This document shows positions 4,102-41,549 of a stretch of 64,000 nucleotides of DNA, piece after piece. The position numbers and the translations under genes were made by a program. Under the pieces are notes generated by a model. That model was not told the DNA's origin and searched no databases. It saw nothing but the letters and a program-made list of their open reading frames with translations. Origin of the DNA: Clostridia bacterium (GTDB taxonomy: Bacteria > Bacillota > Clostridia > JAAYHZ01); the NCBI GenBank assembly GCA_050950825.1, contig JBMNIH010000004.1, forward strand, positions 576,001-640,000. Reading direction: 5' to 3'. The first letter of the stretch is position 1. Every line of letters starts with the position of its first letter.

Positions 4102-4127
4102 GTCCATGACGTTACGGAGGTGTAAGC

Positions 4128-5012: not shown

Positions 5013-5014
5013 TT

Positions 5015-19346: not shown

Positions 19347-19358
19347 AAATGAGGTATT

Positions 19359-23506: not shown

Positions 23507-23626
23507 TTAACGACTCCGGCATAAATGGATTTGATGAAATAAATACCGGACCCGTTGTTTTTCGTTTTTCTTCCTATATGATGAAATATATCAAGCTATG
23601 CCATAAAGTCATGATGGAGGTAATTA

Positions 23627-24437
23627 ATGAACGAATTTGTTACGGCAATTCAATTTCAGTCTGCTCAAACACCCGTCATCGTTCAAGTGGAAAAAAGGCG
23701 CTTTTGCCTCATCAAGTAGGCATAAAAACCATTGCTTCTTCTCTATGCAATCATTCCGAAATGAGAAGCTTTTTCGGAAATGATGAGCCGGGTTACGGGT
23801 ATCAATATCCTATGGAACCGGGAGAACCCGGGTACGAAGCCATTGGTATTATTGAAGTCATCGGAGCTGCTGTGAACACGCTGAAGCCCGGAGACGGCGA
23901 TTATGATAACAAAAGGTTATCCGTCATCGGATTAGGTGCAATCGGTCTGTGCACCGTCCGGCTATTACATATGTTTCCTACGTCGGATGTAACGGCGTTT
24001 GATTTATCATTGGATAAGCTAAAGCTTGCAAAAGATTTTGGTGTAGACCATACATTCCTGATAGAACCCGATAGAAATTACGATGAACTTGATAAATTTA
24101 TCGGACGGTTTGATGTGGTCATCGAGTGTTCCGGACACAAGAGCGGACAGGCGCTTGCATACACGCTTTGTGACAAAACCTAATATTCACCGGCTATTGC
24201 AAGGATCCGGTTCCGGTACGCCAATCCGTGTTGTTTAACATAAATACCACGATATACAATCCCGGTATTTTAACTATAGAGGATTTAAAAGCGGTTGCCG
24301 CTTTTTACAACAAAAAAACGATTGATCCCTCTCCTTTGATTACGAAAATTATCCGTCCGAACGCGGATGAATACATTCAAACCATTCAAGAGATCAAAAA
24401 AGGAGAAATCATTAAAGTGTTAATTGACCGGAGGTAG
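23627..24437 (+). pseudogene. Zn-dependent (MDR) dehydrogenase pseudogene
   Basis: ATG 23627 after GGAGGT; frameshifts near 23700 and 24180; LKPGD joined directly to GDYDNKRLSVIGLGAIG (internal deletion); DVVIECSG. Confidence 0.75.
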
Positions 24438-24439
24438 CT

Positions 24440-25314
24440 TTGAACATAGCGGTAGATACATATAGCTTCGTTATGAATTTTGGCCGGCACAGGTACAAGC
24501 CTTCTAATCCATGGACCTTGTCCTGCTATTTTGACTTTGTTATAGAAAACAGGCTTAACGGCATTCATATGGATCCCGCCCATTATGATCCGGTGAAGGA
24601 TGTGCCGGTACCGGATCGTTTTTGCAAGGAAAACAATCTGTATATCGAGTTAGGTGCCATGGAAATTCTGTCGGACGATTTTATGGATTATTTTAATGCC
24701 GCTTATTTAAAACATTTATCGGCGGTTCTCCGCCGGACAATCCTGCCGTGATGAAAGAAAGAATACTCAAATCAAAAGAAAAGCTCTCACATGTATTACC
24801 CTTGGCGGAAAAATATCGGATTAAATTGGCTCTTGAGAATCATATTGATATAACATCGGATGATTTGGACCGGTTAATTGATTTCGACAGTCCTTCTATA
24901 GGCATTTGCTACGACAGCGGCAACTTCTTGGCAATGGATGAAAATCCGTTGGATGCATTCTATCGATTCAAAGACCGCATCTTGTGCACTCATCTAAAGG
25001 ATGTTTGCCCGAAAGAACGGTATCCGGATGCACCGAGCTTCGGCCTTCCTGGAAAACAAGTGCAGTTCTGTGCATTGGGAGAAGGTATCTTGCCTATTCA
25101 AGAGATTCTGGCCGAATTATTGGCAGCGAAAGGAAAAGATGCATATATTACTTTGGAGATTCCCACACCTGTACAAAGCTCTCTTTCCCAAGCCTGCTTG
25201 CTACAAAAAGAAATAGACAATGTATTAAAAAGTATGGAGTATATAAGAAGAATAAAGCCGAGTTTAATGGATAGAAAGAAAGGCGAAAATTCTTGTCCGG
25301 AAAATTCCGTCTAG
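24440..25314 (+). pseudogene. Sugar phosphate isomerase/epimerase (xylose isomerase-like TIM barrel), split
   Basis: Two overlapping ORFs make one barrel; ALENH, ICYDSGN, THLKD, LGEG and TLE motifs. Confidence 0.7.
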
Positions 25315-25355: not shown

Positions 25356-25518
25356 TTTTCGTACGGCAAGACAAAAGCGCATTATATTCAAACGGAATCG
25401 CCGCTAATCGACATGAAAGCCGATAAAGCATATACCGTCAATCGAGGAACCGTATTCAAGATAATGAATGTTTGGTGATACGAAAGAAAGGGGGAACCTC
25501 TTTTTTTGTATCCTTTTA
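25356..25518 (+). repeat. Direct repeat copy 2 (remnant of ABC ATPase 3' end plus terminator)
   Basis: Encodes TESPLIDMKADKAYTVNRGTVFKI versus TESPLTAMEADEIYTVNRGTVIKI in copy 1. Confidence 0.85.
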
Positions 25519-25615
25519 TATGACATCAACACAATAACGACAAAAGTCGCGATTATATGACAAGAATCATCTCTTCGGACGAATTCCTTTACCGGGATAT
25601 CCGTTTATGTATAAT
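25516..25615 (+). promoter_or_regulatory. Tad operon promoter region with repeated GACA boxes
   Basis: TTATATGACA twice, CGACAAAAGTCG dyad, TTTACC-16-TATAAT. Confidence 0.45.
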
Positions 25616-25675: not shown

Positions 25676-26776
25676 ATGGCAAGGTTGAACATGGTATTGG
25701 CGGATACAAACGCCGAATATTGTGATTTCGTATTCGAGTATTTTAATTATCGGTACAAAGAACGATTTCGAATCGATTGCTTCACCGATACGGATGCATT
25801 TATAAAATACATTCGGTCCGAAGGACAAACGGTGGATCTTCTCCTTATCTCCATTGATTTTTTAAGTAAAATGACGTCCGAAGACATCGAGCAAAATGTT
25901 AAAGTCATTGTGGAATTGAAAGAAAACGCCGAAACCGGGAAAACGAAATATCGATCCGTAAACAAATACAGCCGAATCGACGATATGGCCCAAAGGCTAT
26001 TGGACATCTATGCCGATGAATATCGTTTGAAGGATGAAAACACACTTCCGGAGTTTGCCGGCAAAAAGACCTTGGTGATTCCGGTATGTTCACCGGAGGG
26101 AGGATGCGGAAAAACCGTTATCGCCGTAGCGTTAGCCCTCATGTACTCGAGCCTAGGGAAAAAGCCTTTTTACTTAAACTTGGAGAAGTATTATTCTCCC
26201 GTGAAAATTTTCAACCCTTCAACCTTACGAGGCATATCGGATATTCTCTTTTACATTCGAAACCAAGACTCGAATATCCGCACAAAAATCACCTCCTTTA
26301 AATGTACGGATCCGGATTACGGCGTGGATTATTTGTCTCCCGTCGCAACACCGAGAGATTTGGAGGAGACGAATATCCGGGAGGTGATCACATTGGTACA
26401 AGAAATCATCTCCGCCGAGCTGTACGACGTGATCCTTATCGATACCGACGGATCTTTTGATCTTTTAAAGCCGGAATTCATCAAGATATGTACAAAAATC
26501 GTCGTTCCTTATACCCAATCGGAATACGGAATCAATAAAATAAAATCCTTCATAAACAATCTGGAAAGATCCTTTCAAAACGAAGAAGAATGGCTCCGCG
26601 ATAAATTGATTTTAACGGCAAACAAGACGGAAGGGGCGGCCGAAAGAATCTTGGAGTCTTACATGAAAGCACCAATTCCTTTTCCGCTCTTTAATTCGAT
26701 GAACGGGTGCATACAATCCGTATTGAAGCATGATGCATTAAAGGAACTGTATAACGTTTTAAATTTCCGTATATAG
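25676..26776 (+). CDS. TadZ/CpaE-like protein (atypical receiver plus ParA/MinD-like ATPase)
   Basis: Receiver-like N-terminus, VNKYS linker, SPEGGCGKT, YLNLE, DVILIDT; first gene of the tad operon. Confidence 0.8.
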   Translation: MARLNMVLADTNAEYCDFVFEYFNYRYKERFRIDCFTDTDAFIKYIRSEGQTVDLLLISIDFLSKMTSEDIEQNVKVIVELKENAETGKTKYRSVNKYSRIDDMAQRLLDIYADEYRLKDENTLPEFAGKKTLVIPVCSPEGGCGKTVIAVALALMYSSLGKKPFYLNLEKYYSPVKIFNPSTLRGISDILFYIRNQDSNIRTKITSFKCTDPDYGVDYLSPVATPRDLEETNIREVITLVQEIISAELYDVILIDTDGSFDLLKPEFIKICTKIVVPYTQSEYGINKIKSFINNLERSFQNEEEWLRDKLILTANKTEGAAERILESYMKAPIPFPLFNSMNGCIQSVLKHDALKELYNVLNFRI

Positions 26777-26805
26777 CCGAAAGAACAGAAGAAGGAGAAT
26801 ACGTT

Positions 26806-28014
26806 GTGATTACGACGGAATTGGTTAACGAGCTTTGCAATCGGGTAGGGGAAAATACGGACCTTTACACATCCATATCCGACGATGCCATACGAAGTAA
26901 AATTACCGAAGCGGTGATGGAAAAATCTCGACACATCCTTTTGTCGGCAAATGAAAAAATCGAATTGATTAATCTTGTTTTTAACAGAATGCGGGGTATG
27001 GATATCCTGCAGCCGCTTCTTGACAACGAGGAGATAACGGAAATTATGGTGAACGGACCCGACCGTATCTTTATCGAAAAGAAGGGCGGCATCGTTCCTG
27101 TTTCCGTCAAATGCGATGCCAAACAGCTGGAAGACATTATTCAAAAAATCGTTTCGTCGGTTAACCGAACGGTAAACGAAGCAAACCCCATATGCGATGC
27201 TCGATTAAAAGACGGGAGCCGTGTTCATGTGGTCATGAAGCCTTTGGCATTGAACGGTCCCATTTTGACCATAAGAAAATTCTCCAAAGCACCGATGGAC
27301 ATAAATACCCTCATATCCTACGGCACGATAACCGAAGAAGCCGCCGATACTCTTAAAAAATTGGTAGAAGCGAAATACAACATTTTCATATGCGGCGGGA
27401 CCGGATCCGGAAAAACCACATTTTTAAACGTTTTGTCCAATTTTATACCCAAAGACGAAAGAATCATTACCATTGAAGACACGGCAGAGCTGCAAATTAC
27501 CGGAGTCGCCAACCTGGTGCGATTGGAAACAAGAAACGCCAATCCCGACGGGGAAGGAGAGATTCGTATCCGAGATTTAATCCGAGCCGGCTTAAGAATG
27601 AGGCCGGACCGCATCGTGGTAGGCGAAGTGAGAGGTGAAGAAGCATTGGACATGCTCCAAGCGATGAATACGGGGCATGAGGGGTCGCTGTCGACGGGAC
27701 ACGGCAATTCCTGCAAGGATATGATCAGTCGATTGGAAACCATGGTGCTTACGGCAGCCCGGATGCCCGTTGAATCCATAAGGAAGCAGATTGCTTCCGC
27801 TTTGGATATTATGATTTTTCTGTCCAGAATGAAGGACAAGTCTCGTAAGGTGATGGAAGTATCCGAGGTGGCGGGCTATAAAGACGGGGAAGTCCTCTTA
27901 AATCCGTTATACAAATACGAGGTTTTAAAAGACGGTACCGGAAAGCTGGTCAGAACCGAAAACGATATGGTCAACAAAGACAAATTCATGATATACGGTT
28001 CGGGAATGATTTAG
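26806..28014 (+). CDS. tadA: Tad pilus assembly ATPase CpaF/TadA
   Basis: EIMVNG, DARLKDGSR, GGTGSGKTT, IEDTAEL, RMRPDRIVVGEVRG, AMNTGH. Confidence 0.95.
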   Translation: MITTELVNELCNRVGENTDLYTSISDDAIRSKITEAVMEKSRHILLSANEKIELINLVFNRMRGMDILQPLLDNEEITEIMVNGPDRIFIEKKGGIVPVSVKCDAKQLEDIIQKIVSSVNRTVNEANPICDARLKDGSRVHVVMKPLALNGPILTIRKFSKAPMDINTLISYGTITEEAADTLKKLVEAKYNIFICGGTGSGKTTFLNVLSNFIPKDERIITIEDTAELQITGVANLVRLETRNANPDGEGEIRIRDLIRAGLRMRPDRIVVGEVRGEEALDMLQAMNTGHEGSLSTGHGNSCKDMISRLETMVLTAARMPVESIRKQIASALDIMIFLSRMKDKSRKVMEVSEVAGYKDGEVLLNPLYKYEVLKDGTGKLVRTENDMVNKDKFMIYGSGMI

Positions 28015-28040
28015 CCACAGCAAGGGTAGGAAGTTACGGT

Positions 28041-28808
28041 ATGGAAAAAAGAACTTTGGCAAAAAAGAAAATATATGATTCTTACGTTTTTTCAACCAAG
28101 GAGAAGCTGATGTACGGTGCGGCAGGGATGATCTTTACGTTTGCTATCGGATATATCTTTTACCGCCGTATCGGTTTTTCCGTTCTTTTGTCTTTCTTAG
28201 GGCTGTATTACTTGAAAATGAAGAAAAAGCAGTCGGTAAAAAAGCAAAAACAAGAGCTGAACGTCCAATTCAAGGATCTTCTGTACTTTTTATCAACCTC
28301 TTTATCGGCCGGAAGGTCGTTGGAAAATGCTTTCGAATCTTCCCTCGAATCGCTTCAAAGACTATACGGGCATGAAGAAAGCCATATCGTAGCGGAGGTT
28401 ATGATTATTCTGGGGAGGCTGAATATGGGGGATACCGTGGAGGAGTGCTTAATCGATTTTTCCAAAAGAGCGCGGATAGAAGATATTTCGAATTTCACGG
28501 ATGTTCTGGTTACCTGCAAACGAAAAGGAGGAAACGTAAATGAAGTTATCAGGAATGCATCGCGAGTCATAAAGGACCGGATTGAGATTATGCAGGAAAT
28601 CGAAATCATGTTGGCGGGAAAAAGAATGGAGCAAAGGATACTGGGTATATCTCCCGTAGCCCTAATCCTCTTGTTGTCATGGTTGGCCGAGGACTTTATG
28701 GCACCGGTTTTCAACAGCCTTTTAGGGCATACGGTAATGACCGTTGCTTTGGTTTTAATCGCTCTTGGCTATTTATGGTCGAAGAAAATCATGGATATAT
28801 CGGTATGA
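28041..28808 (+). CDS. tadB: Tad membrane platform protein TadB (T2SSF family)
   Basis: QFKDLL..LSTSLSAGRSLENA, GGN; TM helices; follows tadA. Confidence 0.88.
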   Translation: MEKRTLAKKKIYDSYVFSTKEKLMYGAAGMIFTFAIGYIFYRRIGFSVLLSFLGLYYLKMKKKQSVKKQKQELNVQFKDLLYFLSTSLSAGRSLENAFESSLESLQRLYGHEESHIVAEVMIILGRLNMGDTVEECLIDFSKRARIEDISNFTDVLVTCKRKGGNVNEVIRNASRVIKDRIEIMQEIEIMLAGKRMEQRILGISPVALILLLSWLAEDFMAPVFNSLLGHTVMTVALVLIALGYLWSKKIMDISV

Positions 28809-28822
28809 AAGGAGTAACAATC

Positions 28823-29707
28823 GTGACCTTTGTATCTTGGATTCTCTTGATTTTTGCCGTTCTGCTTACCGGTATCCTGCTGATTACGACGGGGCTATAC
28901 GGAAAAAAATACAAACCCTATATTCTCCCTCTTCGATCCGATGAATACTTAACGAAACCCTTGTTGCCCTATGGACTGTTTCTGCTGGATTTGATTTGGC
29001 GGGGACATCCCGGCGAATACGGCAAAAAGCTTCTGCGGAAAACCGGTTTTATATACGGCTTGGATTATGCTCCTTACTATTACCAAATCCATATGGCCGG
29101 CAAGCTTGTGTACATGACGGTGTTCGAAATCATTCTCTGCTTTTTTGGTATTGTTGCAAAGTCGGAACCGTTGTTTTTGGCTTTATTGATCCTATGCCCC
29201 GCCATTCTTTTCTTTTTGTGCGACCGAGTTTTAGACGAAATCGGCGAGAAAAGACTGCAGGAGATCCGTAAGGACTTTCCGGATTTCGTAGGGAAAATTA
29301 CGTTGTTGATGGGAGCGGGGCTCAATGTGCGTCAAACCTTTGAAAAGATCGGATCCGACAGCCTTAAAGACAGCCCTCTGTATGCGGAAATAAAAAGAAC
29401 GGTATCGGAATTGCAGTCGGGAAAATCCGAGATTGAGTGCTACCAAACGTTTGCGGAAAGAATTCGAATTCCGGAAGGGAATCGCTTAATCGGCATTATC
29501 ATACAAAACATTCGTATAGGAGGTGCCGCCATGCTTCGAGAGTTGGAATCGTTAAGCGGCGAGTGCTTGGCCGTAAGGAAAAACAACGCCTACCGATTGG
29601 CGGAGGAAGCGCAAGCCAAATTAATCTTTCCTATGATCCTCATGTTTATCGCCGTTTTGTTAACCGTTATGACACCGGCAATTCTCTCCATGAGGGGATT
29701 GATATAA
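28823..29707 (+). CDS. tadC: Tad membrane platform protein TadC (T2SSF family)
   Basis: DFPDFVGKITLLMGAG, AEEAQAKLIFPM; GTG start after GGAG. Confidence 0.88.
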   Translation: MTFVSWILLIFAVLLTGILLITTGLYGKKYKPYILPLRSDEYLTKPLLPYGLFLLDLIWRGHPGEYGKKLLRKTGFIYGLDYAPYYYQIHMAGKLVYMTVFEIILCFFGIVAKSEPLFLALLILCPAILFFLCDRVLDEIGEKRLQEIRKDFPDFVGKITLLMGAGLNVRQTFEKIGSDSLKDSPLYAEIKRTVSELQSGKSEIECYQTFAERIRIPEGNRLIGIIIQNIRIGGAAMLRELESLSGECLAVRKNNAYRLAEEAQAKLIFPMILMFIAVLLTVMTPAILSMRGLI

Positions 29708-29735
29708 AGACATATGAAATGGAGGATGAAGACCC

Positions 29736-29993
29736 ATGTCGACAAAACGAAAGAAAAATGAAATGCAAAAAAGGTACTCGGGAAAAAAAGCTTATCAAAT
29801 CAAAAACGTATTTACGGATAAACGCGGCATTAATACGGTAGAAATTATCATTATTCTTGCGGTTTTTATCGGACTGATTCTTTTGTTTAAAGACTATATA
29901 ACCGAATTCATACAAAAAGTATTCAGTACCATAAACCGAGATACGGACAGCATTTTAGGAATCATTTTTCCTGTCGTCAAAGGCAGGATGTAA
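29736..29993 (+). CDS. flp: Flp1-like type IVb/c major pilin
   Basis: Basic leader, cleavage site DKRG|INTVEIIIILAVFIGLILLFK with E+5; GGAGG SD. Confidence 0.88.
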   Translation: MSTKRKKNEMQKRYSGKKAYQIKNVFTDKRGINTVEIIIILAVFIGLILLFKDYITEFIQKVFSTINRDTDSILGIIFPVVKGRM

Positions 29994-30010
29994 AAGATGA
30001 AAATTCGAGG

Positions 30011-30697
30011 ATGGCTATGGGTAAATTAGCATGCTTTCGAAAAAACCGTAAAAGTTTCGATACCGTGAGGAAAGTACTGAAAGAAAAAGAAGGTGTTGCA
30101 ATCATAGAAGCCGCCTATTTATATCCCGTCGTTATTCTTATCATAGCGGCCTTGTTGATAGCAGGCACGGTTTGGTATCAAAAAGCCTATTTTAAATCCT
30201 TGGTGAATCGTTCCGTTCAATCCATCTCCTTTTCGGTGACAAAACCGCCGAACGTCACGGCAAACTTAAACGAAAACGGTGCGAGCTTTCTTGATCTTCC
30301 CGTTTATTATTCCGTCGAAACGCTGAATGAACGAATCGAAAGAGAGGTTCGCAAAAACATGGAAAAAGGATTGGAACGCTATGTGATTTACTCTTTTAAC
30401 GAGCCGATAACGATCCGTACCCAAATCGTTAACCGTGTGTTTTACAAAGATCTTTTGGTGGAAGTGACCATACCCTGCAAGGTCCCTTTCGGGTTCTTGT
30501 TCGGAACGACCGACAGCGAAGGCAACCTTTTGTTTCATGAAAAGATATCCGTTTTACTACCGGCAACCGCGGAATTAGTTTGGCAAATCGATTTGGTTGA
30601 AGATTCATTGAAGCGATTGGGTTTGGATGATAAAAAAGATCAATTTATAGCAAGCTTAACGCGGCCTTTAAAAATGCTGTTGGAGAAAATGTATTGA
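30011..30697 (+). CDS. TadE-like minor pilin
   Basis: EKEG|VAIIEAAYLYP prepilin motif followed by a hydrophobic helix. Confidence 0.8.
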   Translation: MAMGKLACFRKNRKSFDTVRKVLKEKEGVAIIEAAYLYPVVILIIAALLIAGTVWYQKAYFKSLVNRSVQSISFSVTKPPNVTANLNENGASFLDLPVYYSVETLNERIEREVRKNMEKGLERYVIYSFNEPITIRTQIVNRVFYKDLLVEVTIPCKVPFGFLFGTTDSEGNLLFHEKISVLLPATAELVWQIDLVEDSLKRLGLDDKKDQFIASLTRPLKMLLEKMY

Positions 30698-30716
30698 AAG
30701 TGCGGGAGAGAAGATC

Positions 30717-33701
30717 ATGTTTCAAAACGGTAAAAATCAAAACCGATGGAATCGGTCCGGGTCTATTACCGTATTTTTAGCCGCCGTTTTGGCAACGGTT
30801 ATCACTTTCACCGGCTGCATGATAGATCTTGCACGCATTAAGCTGGCAGAGGCTTATGTAAGCCGTGCAGCCCATGCGGCCGCTTACTCGGTTTTATCCG
30901 GGTTTCATAAGGATCTGGAAAGAGACTATGGCTTGATGGCGATATATGATAGCGATTCATTGATAAGTGAGGAAACGGTTTTACGTATTGTCGAGAACAA
31001 CTTAAACATACATACGGAAAAAGGCTTGGATCTTTACAATTTTAAAACGGAGAGTGTAAAGGTTATGCCAAAGGTTCATTTTTTGTATCCCGACACCGTA
31101 AAAAGCCAAGTCGTTACTTTCATGAAATACAGAGCGCCCATTGAAGTCGTCGACTCCATACTTGAACAGTTGGACCTGTTATCGCGACTTGATGTTACCG
31201 TGAAAGGCATGAACATCAAGATCAAATTCGAGAAGAAGATCAATAAATTGGAGAATCGCTTGATAAAGCTGGATCTTATAACGAAAAAGCTGTCTAAGTT
31301 CAATATGGATAGGATTAGCGGGTTCTCGTGGTACGAAGCCTACCGAATGCTGTTCGGTTATCGCGTGACCATGGAGTTAATCGATTATGTTCAAAACCAA
31401 TTAAGCCGAATTACAATACAAAAGAATGACGATCTTTATACGCTTCGATTGAAAATCGAAAGCTTCAATCGGTGGGTTGGGATTCTTAACGGTTCGGGAA
31501 TAGGACCGCTATCCTTCGTCCCTATACCGGATATTTCTATGGAGCCGGAGTCCGAAGCAAGGGATATGTTCATAAAGGAGCTGCAGGAGGGAATACAAGA
31601 AGCGAAAAGGCAAGTAGCCTTAGTTTATATTGACATGGACCGAGCTTTCCGTGCAGGACTTTCGGAAATGACGGACAAGCTTTTATGCTACATTTATGAC
31701 TGCCAAGATGCCGTAGCTTTGTGTAACGGGATTATAGCGGATTCTCAAGAAGCGGTGAAGCTGGCGAGAGAAGGGTTGGAGCTTCTTTCTCATGACAAAA
31801 CGCCGGTAGGGCAAGAAATGAAGTTGGAGTTTGAAAAGGCTCTTCGGTCTCTTCGAAAGGAGAATACGGAAAGACTAAAAGAGAATATATTGCATAACAA
31901 GGATTTGCTGTCCGGGCTGTTATCGGCGGTAAATAATATGGAGGAAGATGCAAAGGAAGTATTCCATCGGTCGGGCATATTGGATGTAGGCTTGGCATTA
32001 AGGAAAGCGGATGATAAGCTTCACCGTTTTTACGAGCGGATCCAAGCATACAAGGACAAGGATATAACATTCGATTACGATCAAGATGCAAAACCGTATC
32101 CGACGGATGAAACAAAAGGCGGAAGCGGTTCCGATCCGAGAGAAAAAATAACAAGGGATGCCCTGCGGATAAAAGAAAACGAAAATACGTTCGAGCCGGT
32201 TATAATGGGTGAAATGCCGGGAGAATCAAAGGATTTTCTCGACGGATTGCCGTCTCGTTTGATGAAAACCATGACAAACGATATTTATGATTTTTCGATA
32301 CATGACCCGGAATTCGGCGAAGGTGATGGGGAAGGGACCTCGGAGAAAGCGCTGAATAAGGCAACCGGGTTTTTCAGCGGATTGAAAGAAGTAATGAAAA
32401 ACGATTGGAACGAATTGATCGAGGAAATCTACTTTAACGAATATATTATGCAAACCATGAAAAACGCCGTTACGGGGAGCAATGAAGAAAAGATCAACGT
32501 TTACGGCTCCGGCAAGGAGGAGATGGCTGCGAAAGAGTATTTTGATATTCGAGGAAATCTAATAAGAGAGCGAAGCTCCTATTTTAAAAAAGGTGAAGCG
32601 GAATACATCATAGTCGGAAACCGATCCGAAGCGGTGAATATCTCCGTTGTGAAAAGCGAAATATTGGCCATCCGGTTTGCCATGAATCTGTTGGGAGCCT
32701 ATATGGACAAGAGCAAAACCGCTTTGGCAAGTACAATCGCCCTTTCAACGGTAGGCTGGACCGGTATCGGCGTACCTTTGATGAAGACGCTCATTATGTG
32801 TGCATGGGCTTTTGCAGAGTCGGTGACCGATGTCATAAAGCTTACGGAAGGGAAAACCGTTCCTTTTTACAAAACGGATTTTTACTTGGATATCGGATTG
32901 GCGGACATAGGGAAAACGGTGGAGAACGTCATCGAAAAAGCGGCAAAAAATTCATTGGAAAATATCGAGAAAAGTGCATTGGACAAAGGAAAAAATTTGA
33001 TTTACAAGATTGCGGAGAACACGGTGGATCGGTACCTTCTCGAAAAGGGATTTTATACGGTTTCCGAAAACCTATATGAGCAGTTGGAATGGCGAGATTC
33101 GGAATTTGATACAAGCTCTGACGGTGTTTTTCAAACCGTCCAAGGAATGATTCACGATTGGTTGAAAGAAACATACAACAAAAGGATTGAAAGCTTAACG
33201 GACCGTATTAACGAAACCGGCGATTATCTAAAAGAAACCATAATGATAAGCTTGGAATACCAATTGGACGAGCATAACCCCAACGGATTGTATCGAAAAA
33301 TTACGAATTATCTTGATTCCATAAATACAAGCTTGGCGGACATTGCCGGGTCTGCAGTAGGATCTTTATTTGCTTTCGATGTCTTTGTCGAATCCGATGG
33401 AACAAGCTCACTGCAAAGCGGTATGAAAATCCTTCCTTTATCCTATAACGACTACATACGAATTTTATTGCTTTTACAAGGAAAGGATAAGGTCCTGTAT
33501 CGAACCCTTGATTTGATTCAACTGAACATGCAGCAAAAAGACCGAGATTTTTATATCTCCCGACAAAATGCATACGTGAACGTAGAGGTTGAAGTATCGA
33601 TACCGTATTTATTTCCTACCGGGATGTTTATCAACGACAAGCTGAAGGATCAAGAGAAAAAAAGACACGTGATAAGGGCGGTGGTTGTGAAAGGATATTA
33701 A
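30717..33701 (+). CDS. Large TadG-like pilin with DUF5702-like C-terminus
   Basis: SG|SITVFLAAVL..IDLARI; VVTFMKYRAP; EAEYIIVG, ILAIRFAMN, AWAFAES and SYNDYIRILLL motifs. Confidence 0.75.
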   Translation: MFQNGKNQNRWNRSGSITVFLAAVLATVITFTGCMIDLARIKLAEAYVSRAAHAAAYSVLSGFHKDLERDYGLMAIYDSDSLISEETVLRIVENNLNIHTEKGLDLYNFKTESVKVMPKVHFLYPDTVKSQVVTFMKYRAPIEVVDSILEQLDLLSRLDVTVKGMNIKIKFEKKINKLENRLIKLDLITKKLSKFNMDRISGFSWYEAYRMLFGYRVTMELIDYVQNQLSRITIQKNDDLYTLRLKIESFNRWVGILNGSGIGPLSFVPIPDISMEPESEARDMFIKELQEGIQEAKRQVALVYIDMDRAFRAGLSEMTDKLLCYIYDCQDAVALCNGIIADSQEAVKLAREGLELLSHDKTPVGQEMKLEFEKALRSLRKENTERLKENILHNKDLLSGLLSAVNNMEEDAKEVFHRSGILDVGLALRKADDKLHRFYERIQAYKDKDITFDYDQDAKPYPTDETKGGSGSDPREKITRDALRIKENENTFEPVIMGEMPGESKDFLDGLPSRLMKTMTNDIYDFSIHDPEFGEGDGEGTSEKALNKATGFFSGLKEVMKNDWNELIEEIYFNEYIMQTMKNAVTGSNEEKINVYGSGKEEMAAKEYFDIRGNLIRERSSYFKKGEAEYIIVGNRSEAVNISVVKSEILAIRFAMNLLGAYMDKSKTALASTIALSTVGWTGIGVPLMKTLIMCAWAFAESVTDVIKLTEGKTVPFYKTDFYLDIGLADIGKTVENVIEKAAKNSLENIEKSALDKGKNLIYKIAENTVDRYLLEKGFYTVSENLYEQLEWRDSEFDTSSDGVFQTVQGMIHDWLKETYNKRIESLTDRINETGDYLKETIMISLEYQLDEHNPNGLYRKITNYLDSINTSLADIAGSAVGSLFAFDVFVESDGTSSLQSGMKILPLSYNDYIRILLLLQGKDKVLYRTLDLIQLNMQQKDRDFYISRQNAYVNVEVEVSIPYLFPTGMFINDKLKDQEKKRHVIRAVVVKGY

Positions 33702-33702
33702 G

Positions 33703-34899
33703 ATGGGAAAAAGGACGAAGAAAACGATTCAAAAAACGCTCCGGTCCGAAAAAGGCGGTTTAACGGTCGAAGCATCCGTTGCTTTGCCGTTGTTTGTACT
33801 GACCGTATATTTGCTTTTGTACCTCATTCAAATTGCCCTTATACACAACAGGATGCAGCAGGCATTAACCGAGGTGGCTTTTGAAACCGGTCATTACATA
33901 ACGGCTTACATGAAAACGGGAATAGACGAAGAAGTCGATACGGTTTTTAATCTCCTTTATCGCTTGCTTCAAAAAATCAATTCGGAGCAAGGGGATCCTG
34001 AAGCCTTTTTGCAATACGATAAACCGGTAACGTCTTTTTTTGCTTCCGTTATAAAGCAAAAAGCCCGGGACGGTCTGTCAAATGTCGTATTTCGAAATAT
34101 GATCAAAAAATATCTGTCCGACGGCAAAGGTGTAAGAAAAAACCCGGAATTTGTCGGGATTGCAGGAGGGATTGACGGGTTGGACTTTAGCGGATCCAAA
34201 ATACTTGAGGATCAAAGAACCTTGGAGTTGACGGTACGGTATGAAATTCAACCTGTTATCAATGCGGGAAATTGGATTCGGTTTCAAATGGAAAATACGG
34301 CGGCAATCATCCCGTGGCAGGAAGGAGGTAATGCCGATAGTATCAAAGAGGAAGCCTTCAGTGCATGGGTTGATCTTTCGCCCGTCGACAGAGGAATGTA
34401 TATCATCGACCGGGAGATTGCCGGCTTTTTGAACCGTAATAAAGACAAGGAGATTGTTATTTATAACGGGAAAGCCTTTAAAGCAGGAGTATTGTTTTCC
34501 CGGTCGGATGTATTTGAGGAAATCGTGAATATTAGAAGCATCGATTGTACGCTGCCTTCTTACCGTAACGAAACGGTTTTTATCGAGACCGTCATGGAAG
34601 AAATCCGGGATACCGGAACACCGAACCGATTCAAGGATTTTAATACGGGACGATTGTTGAAAATGGACAATAACACCAAAAGAACATTAATTGTTGTTCT
34701 TCCGGAGGGAGTCACGATTTCGGATACGATTCTTCATCCGTGCCGTGAATACGCTCGACTTTGGGATGTGAATTTGGTCTTTAAATATGCTTACGGAAAA
34801 CCGAAAAACGGCACCGGTATATTCTTTTTCGGTGATTCGAATGATAATGATTTTGAAAAACCGCTGCTAAACGGCAGCCCGGCAGAGAAAGCCCGATAG
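33703..34899 (+). CDS. TadE-like minor pilin with C-terminal nuclease-fold-like domain
   Basis: KGG|LTVEASVALP; IAGGIDGLDFSGS; C-terminal W..L.P..RG, IRSID.T..SY and RTLIVVLPE motifs. Confidence 0.75.
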   Translation: MGKRTKKTIQKTLRSEKGGLTVEASVALPLFVLTVYLLLYLIQIALIHNRMQQALTEVAFETGHYITAYMKTGIDEEVDTVFNLLYRLLQKINSEQGDPEAFLQYDKPVTSFFASVIKQKARDGLSNVVFRNMIKKYLSDGKGVRKNPEFVGIAGGIDGLDFSGSKILEDQRTLELTVRYEIQPVINAGNWIRFQMENTAAIIPWQEGGNADSIKEEAFSAWVDLSPVDRGMYIIDREIAGFLNRNKDKEIVIYNGKAFKAGVLFSRSDVFEEIVNIRSIDCTLPSYRNETVFIETVMEEIRDTGTPNRFKDFNTGRLLKMDNNTKRTLIVVLPEGVTISDTILHPCREYARLWDVNLVFKYAYGKPKNGTGIFFFGDSNDNDFEKPLLNGSPAEKAR

Positions 34900-34922
34900 G
34901 AGACGAAGGAGAATACATAAAG

Positions 34923-35468
34923 TTGAAGAATTTAAACGGCTTATTGCCGAAAAAAACCTTTCGATATGTTATATGTTTTATAGGTTTTTTGATTTGGATC
35001 GGTTTTCTTCTTTATATGGAAAATCGGTCGGGGTATCGAATATTTCATTGGTTCGGCCTTGCTATCTTATGCTTTGCAGCCGTTCAAGATTCGGTTGAAG
35101 GAAAGGTTCGTCCGCTATTATGGGGCTTGCTTTTATTATTCGAATTCTCTGCTTTCCTTTTAAATCCGAAACGAACGGACTTTTCCGAGTCGGTTTCCGT
35201 TCTCGTGTTTGGAGTTTTGCTGGGGGTTGTATTCCTGATCTTTAAAAACCATATCGGGCTAGCCGATATCATGGTATTGATTTCCTTATCATTCGGATTC
35301 GGTGTTCCCGTTATCGTAACCGGTCTTGTAATATCATGCTTTTTCATATTTATCGTCGGTATTATTTTAAAGTTTATAAAAAAACGGGAACCGAAGGACG
35401 GGATCCCTCTGATTCCGATTCTTTGTTTATCGTTATTGGTGCTTTATATAGCAGGTTTAATTGATTGA
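34923..35468 (+). CDS. Prepilin peptidase A24 (TadV/CpaA)
   Basis: AVQD and IGLAD catalytic Asp motifs, IPLIP, multi-TM. Confidence 0.75.
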   Translation: MKNLNGLLPKKTFRYVICFIGFLIWIGFLLYMENRSGYRIFHWFGLAILCFAAVQDSVEGKVRPLLWGLLLLFEFSAFLLNPKRTDFSESVSVLVFGVLLGVVFLIFKNHIGLADIMVLISLSFGFGVPVIVTGLVISCFFIFIVGIILKFIKKREPKDGIPLIPILCLSLLVLYIAGLID

Positions 35469-35528
35469 CTTCAATGAAAGTACAAAAGACGAAAGGAGTG
35501 CGGACCTTGGCAATGCCAAGAAAATAAA

Positions 35529-37049
35529 ATGGAAAAGGACTTACTGGATTTATTCGATATTTCTTATACGAATTCGGTGACATCAAGTCATGTCGTATTC
35601 ACTGCTCGATCGGATCTTCCTTTTTATATCCACCAACTGAAGATGCTTGGTTATAACCAAAAATCTTTGAAAACCGTTATTCCGCCGGACTATAGAAAAA
35701 GAAACGATTCTACGGAGTTCTTTTACGATATTACTTCGAAAAAAACGTTAACGGATTTTTTGTATAAAAACATTTTGAACAAGGAGGAAGTGATTCATAT
35801 TCTGTCCGGTATCGTCGAGACCTTATGCGATTGCGAAAGCTACCTCTTGTCGGCGGATAAATTTGTTCTCGATACGGACTATATGTACATAGATCCCGAC
35901 GGAGATACCATCCGCATGATCTATTTACCCGTCAAACAATCGTTTGATGCAACGGAGCAATTGAAAAAATTTTTAATCGAGTTTATTTCGCTAAAAGCGA
36001 AAATATCAACGGAGCAAAACGATAACTATACACAGCGAATATTGGAATATATCAAGGAAGATCATGTGAGTATCCGCGGTATCAAAAGCTTGCTTGAACA
36101 ACTGGGGAACAATGCACCCTTAGAAAAGCAAGAAAGAGATCAAAAAGAATCGCATTTCGAAACGTATGCCGAATTTCCATACAATCCCGGTAAACACCCG
36201 GATCAAGCTTCGGAAAAGTCGAAAAAAAACTTGAAAAAAAGAACGTCCGAAAAACCTAAGAGTATGGATGTAAAGATTCCCGGTATCCGGAGTCTGCCTG
36301 AAGAATGTTACGAAAAAGTGAAAAGAACAAACGGAAAAGCCCGGCATGCTTACTTGCTACTGTTTTTGATCGGTATTCTTGCGTTTATTTTTATTGCAGG
36401 AACCGTCCTTATTGGACGAGGGGGAAAAGGTCAAAAAGGTCTTCAAATCTTTGGATTGTTCATCCTTTTATCCGGAATCGGTTATATCTTCTTCAATCGA
36501 TTCGGGCGTAAAAAAACCGGTGAGAATGAAGATAGCAAAGAACGGTTGGAGAAAACCGAAAAAGAAAAGGACAAGCCCAAGCTCAAAGAAAAGCAAATTA
36601 ACATACCGATCCCCGTATTTCAATCGGTAAAAGAGGAGAAGAAAGAAGCTCCCGTCGAAAAGAACGGTACCTTTATCCCGTCCGATAAACATATAAATAC
36701 GGAAAACGAGGAACTTATGCATACCGTTGTGCTGAGCGGCGGGAATAGGAAGGTGCTGTATTTACATAAATCCGGTTCCAACATGAAAATTTTCATCACC
36801 GCCACACCCTTTGTACTGGGCAGACTTCGTGAATTCTCCGATTTTGCCATTAATAACCCTGCCATCGGTAAATCTCATTGCGAAATTTCCTATGATGACA
36901 ACGGCGTTTACGTAAAGGATTTGGATTCTAAAAACGGGACTTACGTAAATGATATTAAATTGGAGCCCGGAAGGAGGGTTACGGTACAAGACGGTGACCG
37001 GCTGGGTATTGCTAACGAAAGCTTCGTAATTAAATATCCGGCAGACTAA
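35529..37049 (+). CDS. DUF6382-like / 2 TM / FHA domain protein
   Basis: QLKMLGYN, FYDITSK, YLL...LD..YMY.....MIYLP; two TMs; FHA motifs LGR, KSHC, DLDSKNGTYVN. Confidence 0.8.
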   Translation: MEKDLLDLFDISYTNSVTSSHVVFTARSDLPFYIHQLKMLGYNQKSLKTVIPPDYRKRNDSTEFFYDITSKKTLTDFLYKNILNKEEVIHILSGIVETLCDCESYLLSADKFVLDTDYMYIDPDGDTIRMIYLPVKQSFDATEQLKKFLIEFISLKAKISTEQNDNYTQRILEYIKEDHVSIRGIKSLLEQLGNNAPLEKQERDQKESHFETYAEFPYNPGKHPDQASEKSKKNLKKRTSEKPKSMDVKIPGIRSLPEECYEKVKRTNGKARHAYLLLFLIGILAFIFIAGTVLIGRGGKGQKGLQIFGLFILLSGIGYIFFNRFGRKKTGENEDSKERLEKTEKEKDKPKLKEKQINIPIPVFQSVKEEKKEAPVEKNGTFIPSDKHINTENEELMHTVVLSGGNRKVLYLHKSGSNMKIFITATPFVLGRLREFSDFAINNPAIGKSHCEISYDDNGVYVKDLDSKNGTYVNDIKLEPGRRVTVQDGDRLGIANESFVIKYPAD

Positions 37050-38865: not shown

Positions 38866-41448
38866 TTAAATATTTGCCTCGTCGAAAGCTTTATCGTGAA
38901 TGGATAAATGGCTCCCTTGAGAATAACGGACATCATAAACGGAATCGTTTTTATACCGTATAAATGCAGTTAAGGCATCGGTTTTTATGCCGTAATCGGA
39001 AAGAGCAATGCATCTTCTTTGATACGGATCGTTGTAGATGAGAAGGTCGGTATAGTATAAAGATTCTACGCGAATAACTACACATTCATCCGGGAGGCTG
39101 TCGACCGCAAGTCTTTCAATGTTTAATATTTTGCTCTTCCCGTCGTAAGGCTCCATCACTTGAACAAAAACGACAGGCTGAAAAGGTTCCTCCGTTTGCT
39201 TTTGTGTTATGAAACAGGGCATTAATAGCTCGTTTTTTAAAATCCGCTCGTAATTTCTGTTCCCGAAAAATCTCATGTCCGCGATCATGATTTCGGATCC
39301 GGTTGTCAGATCGGTGCATCTTAGATGCCAATCTCTTTTTTTCGCAACGTAGTTAAAATAGTCCTCAATATGAAAGTCGACATACCGGTTTTGTTTTGGA
39401 GACGGGTCTTTTCTTAAATTCTCAAAAAACAAACCCTTCGGATAATCGTTTACTGTCGGCACCGGATTCATCCCGCTGTACGAAAGGCTTCCGATGGCGG
39501 CGTGCATGTATCTTTCGTACAGGCGGCCGTTGCCCTGCAGACGGAATATGTCTGCAATATAAAACGCTTCTTCGGAAAGGTCCGTAAGGGATAAGGTTCG
39601 AGCGAATTGCTTTCCGTCCTTTATCATATTCGGATTGCTGCAAGTTACGGTTTTAAAGGATTCGCTGTTCAGCCATAAATCAACCTTGCCCGCTCCTCGA
39701 ATGCCCGGTGAACGATCCTGCGTTGCACAATTATGAACAAAAATCGATTTACCCCAATTGAATTCATCGGAATAAAAGCCGCCGTTATATACAACGGGAG
39801 GATACCCCCAATCCGGCATCATATCGATGCCCATACAGAACAAGCCGATATTCATGGGATCCTCGTGCTCATGGCCGCTTTGCTCCCAATCAAAGTCTAT
39901 CCATAAAGCCCGTTTATGCTCTCCTTTACCGGATCGTAAAATGGCCAGATGCCAATTCGGCTTGATCACGCTAGGAAGATCAATTTCATATCCCTCGTCT
40001 TTCAGAACCTTATCAATTTCCTCTATCATTTGATCAAATTCTTGTTTGCCTAAAAAATCGATCTGCGCTAACAGCTCGGTATATCGCTCTTTAACTGCCG
40101 ACCATATTCCTTTGATAAACACGGTGTCTCCTGTTATTTTGTAACATTTGTATAGCATATATAAGGAGCCCGGGCTTTTGTGCAGACAGCCGCCGGAGGG
40201 TTCGGCAAAAGCAAGGCAATCACCAATTTTAGGATAATACTCGTCGATGCACAAGGTATCAATGAAGAATCGATAGGCTTCGATTAGCGAAGGGTATTTT
40301 TTAAGCAAATCGTCGATAAAAGAAGGCTTTTTATGGACAAACTTCAAAAGGATTTCCGTCAGCTGCTCTTTTGCGTGGTTGGTATATCCGGTAAGACCGT
40401 TTTCCTTTGTAGCTCCGTCACGTTCCGTGCACTGAACAATGATTTCTTCCAACAGGGAATCCACCGTTTCATCATTACCTAACACGGCATGGATGATAGC
40501 GTATAAAGCATGGGTCATCGGAAAGTTGGATCTGCATTTTTTGTAATTTGCCAAAGCGTCCTTCAGTATACGATTTTCAATATGCTGCAGGATGTCTTGG
40601 GGTGAATTTACGGTATACGGTAAACCGTGTTTTTCTTTTTGCGCCTTTACAAATGCCAATAATTCCTGATCCTCGAGCATTGCACCTCGGATGATATCAT
40701 AAGCATGGGCGAAGACGGATATATCGTAGTAGGAATGAAACCAATACCCGAAATAGCCTTCGGTTGAGTAAAGCTGTTCATGTACATATACTTGGGTATG
40801 TGCATCGTAATTCGGCCAATAATCGGCATAACGGTCCAGCAATACGGCACATTTACGGGCATACTCCGGCTTTCCCGTAAGGAGGTATGCATAGCTTAAC
40901 GAGTAAATGCCACGAACCAAATCCTTGTGGTGGCCGTGTATAAGGTAGTAGCCGATAAATCGCTGTACGGTATCTCCGTTGCAATAACCGTTCCCGTCAT
41001 CAACGGCAAACATATGCAGAGGATCGTTAGGATCCGGATGCTCCGTGTTAAACAGCAGTGTTTTATCCGCCTTTTCATACCGGAAAACACCGGTTTCATC
41101 GATGCCGGATTTATAGAAAGAGTAGAAATCATTTTTCGGAAAGTAATTCTTACAGTCGGGGCATCGGACTTTCCAGGGGAAGGATATAGGATCAATTTCC
41201 CAATCGTATAATAGCCGTTTTTTCCTGCAAACGGGACACAAGCTGTTTGTGTGTACATAATGAGAACGTAGAATATACGGGTCGATTACCAAACTCCAAA
41301 GCTCCGCATCGTCTTTTGATATGAACCGTTGAGCCTCTTTTAATATGTTCCATCTTTTTTCCATGCCGTGCTTGCTTGTTTCGGCATATTCTCTGAGTTT
41401 TCGAACGGCGCCGTCAGGATAAAATACGCATTTGTTGTTTAAAGACAT
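38866..41448 (-). CDS. Heparinase II/III-like protein with N-terminal CxxC..CxxC, no signal peptide
   Basis: CPVC..PWKVRCPDC..FPKNDF; GHEHEDPMNIGL, PDWGY and HNCATQD motifs. Confidence 0.7.
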   Translation of the reverse strand: MSLNNKCVFYPDGAVRKLREYAETSKHGMEKRWNILKEAQRFISKDDAELWSLVIDPYILRSHYVHTNSLCPVCRKKRLLYDWEIDPISFPWKVRCPDCKNYFPKNDFYSFYKSGIDETGVFRYEKADKTLLFNTEHPDPNDPLHMFAVDDGNGYCNGDTVQRFIGYYLIHGHHKDLVRGIYSLSYAYLLTGKPEYARKCAVLLDRYADYWPNYDAHTQVYVHEQLYSTEGYFGYWFHSYYDISVFAHAYDIIRGAMLEDQELLAFVKAQKEKHGLPYTVNSPQDILQHIENRILKDALANYKKCRSNFPMTHALYAIIHAVLGNDETVDSLLEEIIVQCTERDGATKENGLTGYTNHAKEQLTEILLKFVHKKPSFIDDLLKKYPSLIEAYRFFIDTLCIDEYYPKIGDCLAFAEPSGGCLHKSPGSLYMLYKCYKITGDTVFIKGIWSAVKERYTELLAQIDFLGKQEFDQMIEEIDKVLKDEGYEIDLPSVIKPNWHLAILRSGKGEHKRALWIDFDWEQSGHEHEDPMNIGLFCMGIDMMPDWGYPPVVYNGGFYSDEFNWGKSIFVHNCATQDRSPGIRGAGKVDLWLNSESFKTVTCSNPNMIKDGKQFARTLSLTDLSEEAFYIADIFRLQGNGRLYERYMHAAIGSLSYSGMNPVPTVNDYPKGLFFENLRKDPSPKQNRYVDFHIEDYFNYVAKKRDWHLRCTDLTTGSEIMIADMRFFGNRNYERILKNELLMPCFITQKQTEEPFQPVVFVQVMEPYDGKSKILNIERLAVDSLPDECVVIRVESLYYTDLLIYNDPYQRRCIALSDYGIKTDALTAFIRYKNDSVYDVRYSQGSHLSIHDKAFDEANI

Positions 41449-41549
41449 CGGCTTCACCACCTCCCGCCCATTATAGCATAACCTTTATGCCGGAGTCAGT
41501 GAAAAATTTGTATACTCGAAAAAGAGTTACGAATACACGACGGCTTGTG

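What the first reader, a model, noticed from the sequence alone, without database searches (positions are those of the whole stretch)
25676..37049. Complete monoderm Tad/Flp operon with three non-canonical accessory components
Seen: ten co-oriented, tightly spaced genes: tadZ-like, tadA, tadB, tadC, flp, tadE, giant tadG/DUF5702-like, tadE-nuclease-like, prepilin peptidase, DUF6382-like/FHA. There is no secretin (expected in a monoderm) and no recognisable CpaB/RcpC. Knowledge: Tad systems serve adhesion, DNA uptake (Micrococcus luteus) and contact killing (Myxococcus Kil, which also uses FHA proteins). I know of no functional characterisation of this clostridial subtype. Inference: a phospho-regulated pilus for DNA capture or cell-contact delivery.
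Basis: partly seen in the sequence, partly recalled or inferred. Interest (0 to 1): 0.75.

Follow-up and report, generated by a model that had tools for sequence, protein, structure and literature searches.

The report
Clostridial Tad pilus with pseudokinase adaptor
This is an intact gene set for a sticky surface filament (Tad pilus) of a widespread but little-studied Clostridia/Paenibacillus type, in which an inactive kinase-like protein is predicted to dock on the assembly regulator and one tip subunit carries a disarmed copy of an antibacterial nuclease, probably used for binding rather than killing.

Summary
The ten-gene operon is real and intact. Its TadA lies in a supported Bacillota clade (window plus 30 of 80 fetched loci). 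In that clade DUF5702 (24/30) and DUF6382 (22/30) are common and RcpC was not found (0/31); outside it neither DUF occurs (0/50) and RcpC does (40/50).

Two of the three 'accessory' genes are the usual TadG-like and TadE/F-like minor pilins with extensions. The TadE tail has the CdiA-CT EC869-o11 DNase fold, but 0 of 93 family members keep the catalytic tetrad and no immunity-like gene follows. In other loci this slot holds zinc fingers, an Ig-like domain or nothing, so it is a swappable cap.

The real addition is DUF6382: a truncated kinase fold without catalytic motifs, predicted to bind the TadZ receiver domain (score 0.71, best control 0.00; a prediction only).

Phospho-regulation is weak here: the FHA lacks its conserved serine and the operon has no kinase. 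Nuclease-mediated killing is unlikely. DNA capture is plausible but unshown, and plain adhesion is as likely. Verdict: new variant of a known kind.

The parts
25483..25507 (+). terminator-like hairpin closing the upstream genes
   Evidence: consensus scan; a pattern match only
25588..25615 (+). sigma-A-like promoter candidate (10/12 match, 16-nt spacer) 60 bp before g1
   Evidence: the region holds 23 such sites vs 23.6 expected by chance, so only its position speaks for it
25676..26776 (+). g1 TadZ/CpaE: atypical receiver domain plus ParA/MinD-like domain with deviant Walker A; no basic MinD-like tail
   Evidence: (3FKQ, E 5.7e-22); residues 12-26, 83 and 96-102 form the predicted interface with g10
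26806..28014 (+). g2 TadA/CpaF assembly ATPase with intact Walker A, Walker B and His box
   Evidence: tree
28041..28808 (+). g3 TadB platform protein
   Evidence: T2SSF E 2e-9
28805..29707 (+). g4 TadC platform protein (start overlaps the g3 stop by 4 bp)
   Evidence: T2SSF E 8.5e-7
29736..29993 (+). g5 Flp-like major pilin; predicted cleavage after Gly31, Glu at +5, Ile instead of Tyr at +6; no cysteine
   Evidence: Flp1_like E 4e-16; sequence
30011..30697 (+). g6 TadE-like minor pilin (Gly28, Glu at +5)
   Evidence: TadE E 0.005; sequence
30717..33701 (+). g7 giant TadG-like minor pilin (Gly15, Phe at +5): pilin helix, long helical insert, DUF5702
   Evidence: the profile finds only coiled-coil matches in the PDB; not folded
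33703..34899 (+). g8 TadE/F-like minor pilin (Gly18, Glu at +5) with a C-terminal catalytically degenerate CdiA-CT EC869-o11-like nuclease fold (residues about 217-364)
34923..35468 (+). g9 TadV-type prepilin peptidase, both aspartates present (Asp56, Asp115)
   Evidence: Peptidase_A24 E 0.001; sequence; syntenic homologues score up to E 1e-20
35529..37049 (+). g10 DUF6382 pseudokinase (residues 6-195), two transmembrane helices (about 277-322), FHA domain (about 405-505) with Gly in place of the conserved Ser

Best explanation
A Tad (type IVc) pilus machine of a distinct RcpC-less Bacillota clade. Shown by sequence: TadA, TadB/C, an Flp-like pilin, three minor pilins and a prepilin peptidase are all present with their motifs. 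Inferred from known Tad biology: g9 matures the pilins, g6/g7/g8 form the tip complex that primes the filament, and TadA extends and retracts it. Predicted here: g10 is a non-catalytic adaptor whose pseudokinase domain docks on the TadZ receiver domain and helps place or hold the TadZ ring. In this copy its two membrane helices would tether TadZ, which lacks a basic membrane tail. Inferred: the g8 cap is a domesticated toxin nuclease that binds but does not cut, so the pilus is an attachment or capture device and not a weapon. Its most likely ligand is extracellular DNA or another polyanion (about 35% for DNA).
For: Clade and gene set: (31-row clade, SH-aLRT 100, quick tree; DUF5702 24/30, DUF6382 22/30, 0/50 outside). 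RcpC 0/31 vs 40/50. Kinase fold of DUF6382: Z 12.4-13.0, rmsd 3.4-4.4, 181-188 aligned, to kinases and pseudokinases including BSK8, IRAK3 and Rv3910; no GxGxxG, HRD or DFG in residues 1-195. TadZ-DUF6382 complex: score 0.71, best of 3 controls 0.00; the mark was reached by 116 of 157 solved and 2 of 215 mismatched pairs; runs agree in at least 97% of contacts; partner pLDDT at least 87. The interface includes conserved TadZ Y15, K97, Y98 and DUF6382 M39, N43, Y105. In L009 TadZ and DUF6382-FHA sit side by side upstream of tadA. T7SSf encodes a DUF6382-TM-FHA protein and a TadZ-like receiver domain without other Tad genes (PMC11217815, passages). Clade TadZ tails are non-basic in 26/26 vs basic in 11/11 RcpC-type Bacillota loci. 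Cap: 0/93 keep E177/D198/S209/K211; a CdiA control keeps 4/4 and has a small gene 18 bp downstream; g8 is followed directly by the peptidase.
Against: The complex is a model, made with my own alignments, for which the calibration holds only roughly. The interface-conservation test (p 0.0003) used the same alignments and has no burial control. Only 8 of 24 DUF6382 proteins have a predicted membrane helix after the domain, so membrane tethering cannot be the general role. L007 has DUF6382-FHA but no TadZ receiver domain in the fetched flank. RcpC could be encoded elsewhere in the genomes; two clade loci had under 2 kb upstream. Nothing shows DNA binding: the cap's net charge is -1 (family median 0). 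6 of 23 loci have no cap at all, and two of the window's nearest kin (L008, L022) have no minor pilin genes in the operon. Expression and piliation are untested.
Confidence: 0.6

Rival explanations
1. Same machine, but it is specifically a competence or DNA-feeding pilus: the dead nuclease, or the zinc-finger pair in Lachnospiraceae, is the DNA receptor at the tip, and retraction hands DNA to ComEA/ComEC.
For: Two of the three identifiable cap types in the loci have links to nucleic-acid proteins: the PD-(D/E)xK fold, and an H/C-C-C zinc finger in 14 of 23 loci whose only annotated matches are ComEC/Rec2-family or MBL-fold proteins (E 1e-3 to 5e-2; 4 of 8 rows annotated). Tad genes are required for transformation in Micrococcus luteus (PMC4322843, abstract). 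Two Clostridia in Table 2 of PMC3244431, E. ventriosum and R. gnavus, have tad but no pil or com operon (passage).
Against: No comEA/comEC/comF/dprA hit among the 53 clade flanking proteins scanned (one SSB and one dCMP deaminase only). The zinc-finger matches are weak and have no convincing Pfam or PDB family hit. The caps are not basic. Paenibacillus members carry an Ig-like cap (my reading) and 6 of 23 carry none.
Confidence: 0.25
2. An ordinary adhesion or aggregation pilus. The caps bind cells, glycans or surfaces or are near-neutral passengers, and g10 is a dispensable regulator.
For: Adhesion is the best-documented role of monoderm Tad pili (B. breve; PMC6916266, passages). The caps are interchangeable or absent (of 150 hits, 99 nuclease-like, 8 zinc-finger, 43 neither; one LRR cap).
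Against: DUF6382 is kept in essentially every complete clade locus, even where the minor pilin genes are missing (L008, L022), which does not look dispensable. The dead-nuclease fold is kept across sequences only about 20% identical.
Confidence: 0.3
3. A contact-dependent killing or delivery device like Myxococcus Kil, with g8 as a polymorphic toxin on a pilin carrier or as partner of a type VII secretion system.
For: The cap is homologous to CDI toxin domains (35-37% identity between the CdiA control and the closest fused caps). One homologue, P0131, ends in a kinase-like domain (my reading; no Pfam hit). T7SSg and T7SSh lie next to Tad loci (PMC11217815). Variable tips mediate Kil killing (PMC12075869, passages).
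Against: 0/93 keep the catalytic tetrad and none has acid+acid+Lys/Arg. No gene lies between g8 and the peptidase in the window or in L006. No T7SS family among the window proteins scanned. The nuclease-like cap occurs in only 1 of 23 loci.
Confidence: 0.08
4. A phosphorylation-switched machine: a Ser/Thr kinase controls assembly through the g10 FHA domain.
For: The FHA fold is clear. A kinase or PP2C lies next to the operon in L005, L009 and L021 (Pfam) and, by reading only, in L001 and L004. A PASTA kinase and PP2C lie 21-24 kb upstream in the window.
Against: The window FHA reads R432/G447/H450/N469; the motif is complete in 4 of 15; the FHA is absent in 5 of 20. The upstream pair sits in the usual prpC-prkC-rsgA-rpe cluster (names recalled). 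The analogous YukC-FHA contact in T7SSb appears phosphorylation-independent (PMC9600267, passage).
Confidence: 0.15

Closest known systems
Eubacterium rectale TadZ (PDB 3FKQ) and clostridial tad operons with Flp-like pilins (PMC3244431)
   Same: g1 is a clear homologue of 3FKQ. Flp-like pilin without Tyr at +6, short TadV-type peptidase, wide spread in Clostridia.
   Different: In the passages I saw only TadZ's structure and the operons' existence are described; nothing on DUF5702, DUF6382 or the caps. The TadZ paper itself (PMC3272108) could not be read.
Monoderm Tad/T4cP of Bifidobacterium breve (adhesion) and Micrococcus luteus (transformation)
   Same: Minimal machine without secretin, RcpB, RcpC or TadD (PMC6916266).
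   Different: Has both TadZ and a TadG-like pilin, the latter 994 aa, plus a pseudokinase-FHA protein and domain-capped minor pilins. Actinomycetota TadA sequences in my set fall outside this clade.
T7SSe/T7SSf components TseJ, TsfJ and TsfV (PMC11217815)
   Same: TsfJ has the g10 layout (DUF6382, two membrane helices, FHA); TseJ is the soluble form; TsfV has a TadZ-like receiver domain.
   Different: There they serve a type VII system. The passages read do not call DUF6382 a pseudokinase or propose its partner. The supplements could not be read.
EssB/YukC (T7SSb) and TraF (Gram-positive T4SS) membrane pseudokinases; M. tuberculosis Rv3910 pseudokinase with FhaA
   Same: Degraded kinase fold on a membrane protein acting as an assembly hub, linked to FHA domains. 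The best Atlas feature hit outside DUF6382 is YukC (0.91). Rv3910 Z 12.4, rmsd 3.5, 183 aligned.
   Different: No sequence-level link, and EssB/YukC are not among the top 50 structural rows. g10 has no extracellular domain, carries its own FHA, and often lacks membrane helices.
CdiA-CT EC869-o11/TA271 and YPIII DNase toxins (PDB 4G6U, 4ZQU; Pfam PF21111)
   Same: Fold and sequence family of the g8 cap; 58 of 111 homologues scanned match PF21111 at E 0.01 or better.
   Different: Catalytic tetrad lost, no immunity-like gene, fused to a pilin instead of CdiA or Rhs.
Myxococcus xanthus Kil system (PMC12075869)
   Same: Tad pilus with a three-subunit minor-pilin tip that varies.
   Different: Diderm, several tip clusters and a T3SS-like partner. 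Here there is one tip set and no such partner in the window.

Membership tests
Tad / type IVc pilus | TadA-family ATPase | tested here: met
   Walker motifs intact
Tad / type IVc pilus | two paralogous platform proteins TadB and TadC | tested here: met
   T2SSF on g3 and g4
Tad / type IVc pilus | small Flp-type major pilin with class III signal | tested here: met
   Flp1_like E 4e-16; Gly31, Glu at +5; Tyr at +6 absent, i.e. the 'Flp-like' type of PMC3244431
Tad / type IVc pilus | TadZ/CpaE | tested here: met
   3FKQ E 5.7e-22
Tad / type IVc pilus | TadE/F/G-like minor pilins and a TadV peptidase | tested here: met
   cleavage motifs conserved in the alignments; Pfam hits on the window copies are below cut-off, many homologues are above
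Tad / type IVc pilus | assembled surface filament | not testable with these tools
   needs microscopy
RcpC-containing Bacillota Tad systems | RcpC/CpaB gene in the locus | tested here: not met
   0 of 31 clade loci vs 40 of 50 others; whole genomes not searched
CdiA-CT EC869-o11-type DNase (PF21111), g8 cap | PD-(D/E)xK fold of this family | tested here: met
CdiA-CT EC869-o11-type DNase (PF21111), g8 cap | active site E177, D198, S209, K211 | tested here: not met
   the window has Ile235, an uncertain residue at D198 (the alignment puts an Asp there from an insertion; reading in register gives Val263), Asn276 and Arg278; 0 of 93 homologues complete
CdiA-CT EC869-o11-type DNase (PF21111), g8 cap | adjacent immunity gene | tested here: not met
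   23 bp separate g8 from the peptidase gene
Pseudokinase (g10 DUF6382) | protein kinase fold | tested here: met
   Z up to 13.0, rmsd 3.8-4.2, 185-188 aligned for the best rows; domain pLDDT mostly above 85
Pseudokinase (g10 DUF6382) | loss of the Gly-rich loop, HRD and DFG | tested here: met
   sequence and family consensus; ATP binding itself not tested
EssB/YukC family (PF10140) | homology to the EssB/YukC pseudokinase domain | tested here: inconclusive
   Atlas feature score 0.91 with 166 shared features; no HMM hit; not listed in the top 50 structural rows
Phosphothreonine-binding FHA | conserved Arg, Ser, His, Asn (motif recalled) | tested here: not met
   window R/G/H/N; complete in 4 of 15
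Competence pilus | required for DNA uptake; co-occurs with comEA/comEC | tested here: inconclusive
   only locus flanks could be scanned; no genome-wide test

The most novel reading that the evidence does not exclude
A receiver-domain/pseudokinase pair (TadZ-type ARD plus DUF6382) is a portable assembly module shared by a major Bacillota Tad clade and by T7SSf, and it took over where RcpC was lost. This clade is also the main DNA-capturing filament of many gut and digester Clostridia, with tip receptors domesticated from a toxin nuclease and from ComEC-associated zinc fingers.
Probability: 0.2. Interest if true: 0.8.

Novelty: new variant of a known kind. Interest (0 to 1): 0.55.

Why it matters
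It gives a common DUF (DUF6382) a fold and a testable partner, and it proposes how an RcpC-less monoderm Tad machine is organised, which PMC6916266 names as an open question. It would add Tad pili to T7SSb and Gram-positive T4SS as machines that use a pseudokinase hub. It also shows a toxin nuclease fold reused, without its active site, on a pilus tip. The clade is frequent in Lachnospiraceae, Oscillospiraceae, Anaerovoracaceae and Paenibacillus, so its function bears on colonisation or gene exchange in gut and digester communities.

Tried and rejected
(1) Active nuclease toxin at the tip: rejected on catalytic residues and the missing immunity gene. My first count had the S209 and K211 columns off by one; it was redone. 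P0041 keeps E and D with lysines in shifted positions and might be an active variant.
(2) A larger control set of toxin-fused PF21111 domains: the long-protein search found none among 106 candidates and the plasmid search one. The control is therefore one sequence plus two PDB chains.
(3) Sequence link DUF6382 to EssB/YukC: none in PDB, Pfam or NCBIfam.
(4) Fold of DUF5702/g7: not predicted, because both folding jobs went to g8 and g10; the profile gave only coiled-coil matches; no plasmid match.
(5) Zinc-finger cap: no convincing Pfam or PDB family.
(6) DUF6382 as a universal membrane anchor: rejected, 8 of 24 have membrane helices.
(7) Horizontal island: the operon's GC (0.40-0.445) is like its flanks.
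(8) Promoter scan: at chance level.
(9) Single-sequence PDB search with g8: no relevant hit.
(10) The careful TadA tree did not finish; the quick tree is reported.
(11) Names and sources of the g8 homologues could not be looked up, so their taxonomy and neighbourhoods stay unchecked. The metagenome and viral contig collections were not searched.

Full report
Observation. The ten genes lie on the + strand from 25676 to 37049, with gaps of -4 to 60 bp. Pfam assigns TadZ-like, T2SSE, two T2SSF, Flp1_like, three TadE/Tad N-termini, DUF5702, Peptidase_A24, DUF6382 and FHA. The TadZ receiver, minor-pilin and peptidase hits on the window copies are below Pfam's cut-offs, but many homologues pass and the motifs are intact. 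Class III cleavage sites lie at Gly31 (g5), Gly28 (g6), Gly15 (g7) and Gly18 (g8), with Glu at +5 except in the TadG-like g7. The peptidase has both aspartates, and TadA has its Walker boxes. g1 matches PDB 3FKQ at E 5.7e-22. No secretin or RcpC was found; both are known to be missing from the studied monoderm systems (PMC6916266, passages). GC content does not set the operon apart.

Conservation. In a quick IQ-TREE tree (the careful search did not finish; midpoint root for drawing only) the window and 30 loci form one side of a branch with SH-aLRT 100. They are Lachnospiraceae, Oscillospiraceae, Anaerovoracaceae, Clostridiaceae, Eubacteriaceae, Paenibacillus and unplaced Bacillota. My profiles find DUF5702 in 24 and DUF6382 in 22 of these 30, and neither in the other 50. 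The profiles were built partly from these loci; Pfam agrees independently on 16 of 17 giant genes and 21 of 21 DUF6382 domains scanned. Of the 8 loci without DUF6382, five end before the expected position, one has a shortened tadA followed by unrelated genes, and two have a weakly scoring ORF in the right place (E 7e-4 and 0.039). An RcpC profile made from 10 Pfam-confirmed genes hits 0 of 31 clade members and 40 of 50 others, those 10 included. Whole genomes were not searched. This is one evolutionary contrast, not 80 independent ones.

The tip. g6, g7 and g8 occupy the TadE/TadG/TadF slots; such trimers are predicted to cap Tad pili in other bacteria (PMC12075869, passages). A search of 1.84 billion representatives with g8 gave 359 hits at E 0.001 or better, of which 150 were listed. 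Of 111 that I scanned, 58 match CDI_toxin_EC869_like. A profile of 93 sequences (g8 itself and 92 homologues chosen by eye for a nuclease-like tail) hits 4G6U at E 2.8e-15. The AlphaFold model aligns to 4G6U with Z 12.8, rmsd 2.8 over 135 residues, the next unrelated row being 7.8. The toxin's active site is E177, D198, S209, K211 (PMC9086364, passages). None of the 93 keeps all four: Glu 7, Asp 30, Lys 20, and none has acid+acid+basic, while the neighbouring Arg-Gly and Ser-x-Asp/Asn are kept in about 90%. The window copy has Ile, an uncertain residue, Asn and Arg. A genuine CdiA from a Rhizobium plasmid keeps all four and is followed by a 150-aa gene, whereas g8 is followed after 23 bp by the peptidase. 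The set is biased to relatives of this copy, so active members may exist (P0041 is ambiguous). The slot is modular: among 23 loci where the gene is visible, 1 has the nuclease-like cap, 14 a zinc-finger cap (mostly tandem), 2 an Ig-like domain (my reading) and 6 nothing. The pilin part is shared (probability 99.9). The zinc finger matches only weakly, to ComEC/Rec2-family or MBL-fold proteins (E 1e-3 to 5e-2), and to no curated family convincingly. g7 remains structurally unexplained.

The true accessory gene. The model of g10 shows a confident domain at 6-195, two membrane helices and an FHA domain. The first domain aligns with protein kinases and pseudokinases at Z 12.4-13.0 over 181-188 residues but has no Gly-rich loop, HRD or DFG, so it is a truncated pseudokinase. 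The language-model search ranks YukC/EssB first once DUF6382 is excluded (0.91), but no sequence or top-ranked structural link confirmed that kinship. EssB/YukC and TraF are pseudokinase hubs of T7SSb and a Gram-positive T4SS (PMC9600267 passages, PMC13037476 abstract, PMC12599244 passages). The only paper found that names DUF6382 reports it in T7SSe and T7SSf, in the latter with the same layout as g10 and in a cluster that also encodes a TadZ-like receiver domain; its supplements could not be read and may bear on this. That co-occurrence, and the adjacency of TadZ and DUF6382-FHA upstream of tadA in L009, prompted the one complex prediction. TadZ with DUF6382 scored 0.71 against a best control of 0.00. 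The mark was reached by 116 of 157 solved and 2 of 215 mismatched pairs, the runs agreed in at least 97% of contacts, and partner pLDDT was at least 87. This supports binding and does not show it; my own alignments were used. The PDB holds no sequence homologue of DUF6382, so memory of a like complex is less likely. The interface uses the receiver domain (12-26, 83, 96-102) and conserved positions on both sides (not an independent test). Caulobacter CpaE is thought to reach the membrane through a C-terminal amphipathic helix (PMC13170226, passages). The last 22 residues of clade TadZ are non-basic in 26 of 26 and basic in 11 of 11 RcpC-type Bacillota loci (a crude measure, noticed after the fact). 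However, only 8 of 24 DUF6382 proteins have membrane helices, so the general role is adaptor, not anchor.

Regulation and function. The window FHA has Gly in place of the conserved Ser; the motif (recalled) is complete in 4 of 15 homologues and the domain is absent in 5 of 20. Kinases and PP2C lie beside the operon in one subgroup, which mostly also has a TPR/WG-repeat gene. In the window the only such pair is 21-24 kb away, in a housekeeping cluster. No competence gene was seen among 53 clade flanking proteins and no T7SS family among the window proteins scanned. Tad-dependent transformation is established in M. luteus (PMC4322843, abstract) and adhesion in B. breve. I put the architecture (RcpC-less Tad, pseudokinase adaptor on TadZ, non-toxic binding cap) at about 0.6. 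Within it, adhesion and DNA capture are of similar weight, and killing by the nuclease is unlikely.

Novelty. Clostridial tad operons with Flp-like pilins were catalogued (PMC3244431, passages), and TadZ of this type has a structure (paper not held). Ten library searches found no study of the subtype, no description of DUF5702, no statement that DUF6382 is a pseudokinase, and no report of nuclease-capped TadE pilins; subscription journals are mostly not covered. Also seen as passages and used only as background: PMC12786226, PMC12307814, PMC6668835. Verdict: a new variant of a known kind, with two specific and testable features; interest 0.55.

Noticed in passing
L008:13176-14969 and L022:12079-14800: Two of the window's nearest TadA kin go from tadC/flp straight to DUF6382-FHA, with no minor pilin or peptidase genes; these may be encoded elsewhere.
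   Followed up: no
L005:2328-3851: The TadZ-type receiver domain appears fused to the N-terminus of TadA (508 aa); a Ser/Thr kinase lies directly upstream and DUF6382 is kept without FHA.
   Followed up: partly
L001, L005, L006, L007, L009, L021 (gene after the peptidase): A subclade adds a roughly 430-aa WG_beta_rep protein (with TPR in four of six) and often PP2C, kinase or zinc-ribbon genes; this is the group where phospho-control is plausible.
   Followed up: partly
proteins P0131 and P0133: TadE homologues ending in a kinase-like domain (my reading, no Pfam hit) and in a leucine-rich repeat: further cap types.
   Followed up: no
L003, L017, L018 upstream of tadZ: The operon follows a flagellin and a FliS-like gene (second name recalled) in several Lachnospiraceae.
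   Followed up: no
L033:9036-10873: tadZ plus a shortened tadA (294 aa) followed by unrelated genes: a decayed copy.
   Followed up: no
window 23578-25314: Short pieces of a zinc-binding dehydrogenase and of a sugar-isomerase TIM barrel, apparently fragmented genes, just upstream of the operon.
   Followed up: no
window 17979-21228: SPFH/band-7 protein with double zinc ribbon, a zinc-ribbon membrane protein and a TPM-domain protein in one cluster.
   Followed up: no
window 1178-6315: PP2C, PASTA Ser/Thr kinase, RsgA and, by reading, rpe and thiN: the usual Firmicutes core cluster.
   Followed up: partly
window 9972-13592, 38866-41460, 56707-58890, 61583-63241: Several large proteins that look like carbohydrate-active enzymes (heparinase II/III-like, GH123; two without a Pfam hit), suggesting a polysaccharide degrader.
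   Followed up: no
phage-collection records MT835706.1, MT835924.1, MT835518.1: Unannotated records carry the tandem zinc-finger cap at 32-40% identity; they may be chromosomal fragments or mobile tad genes.
   Followed up: no
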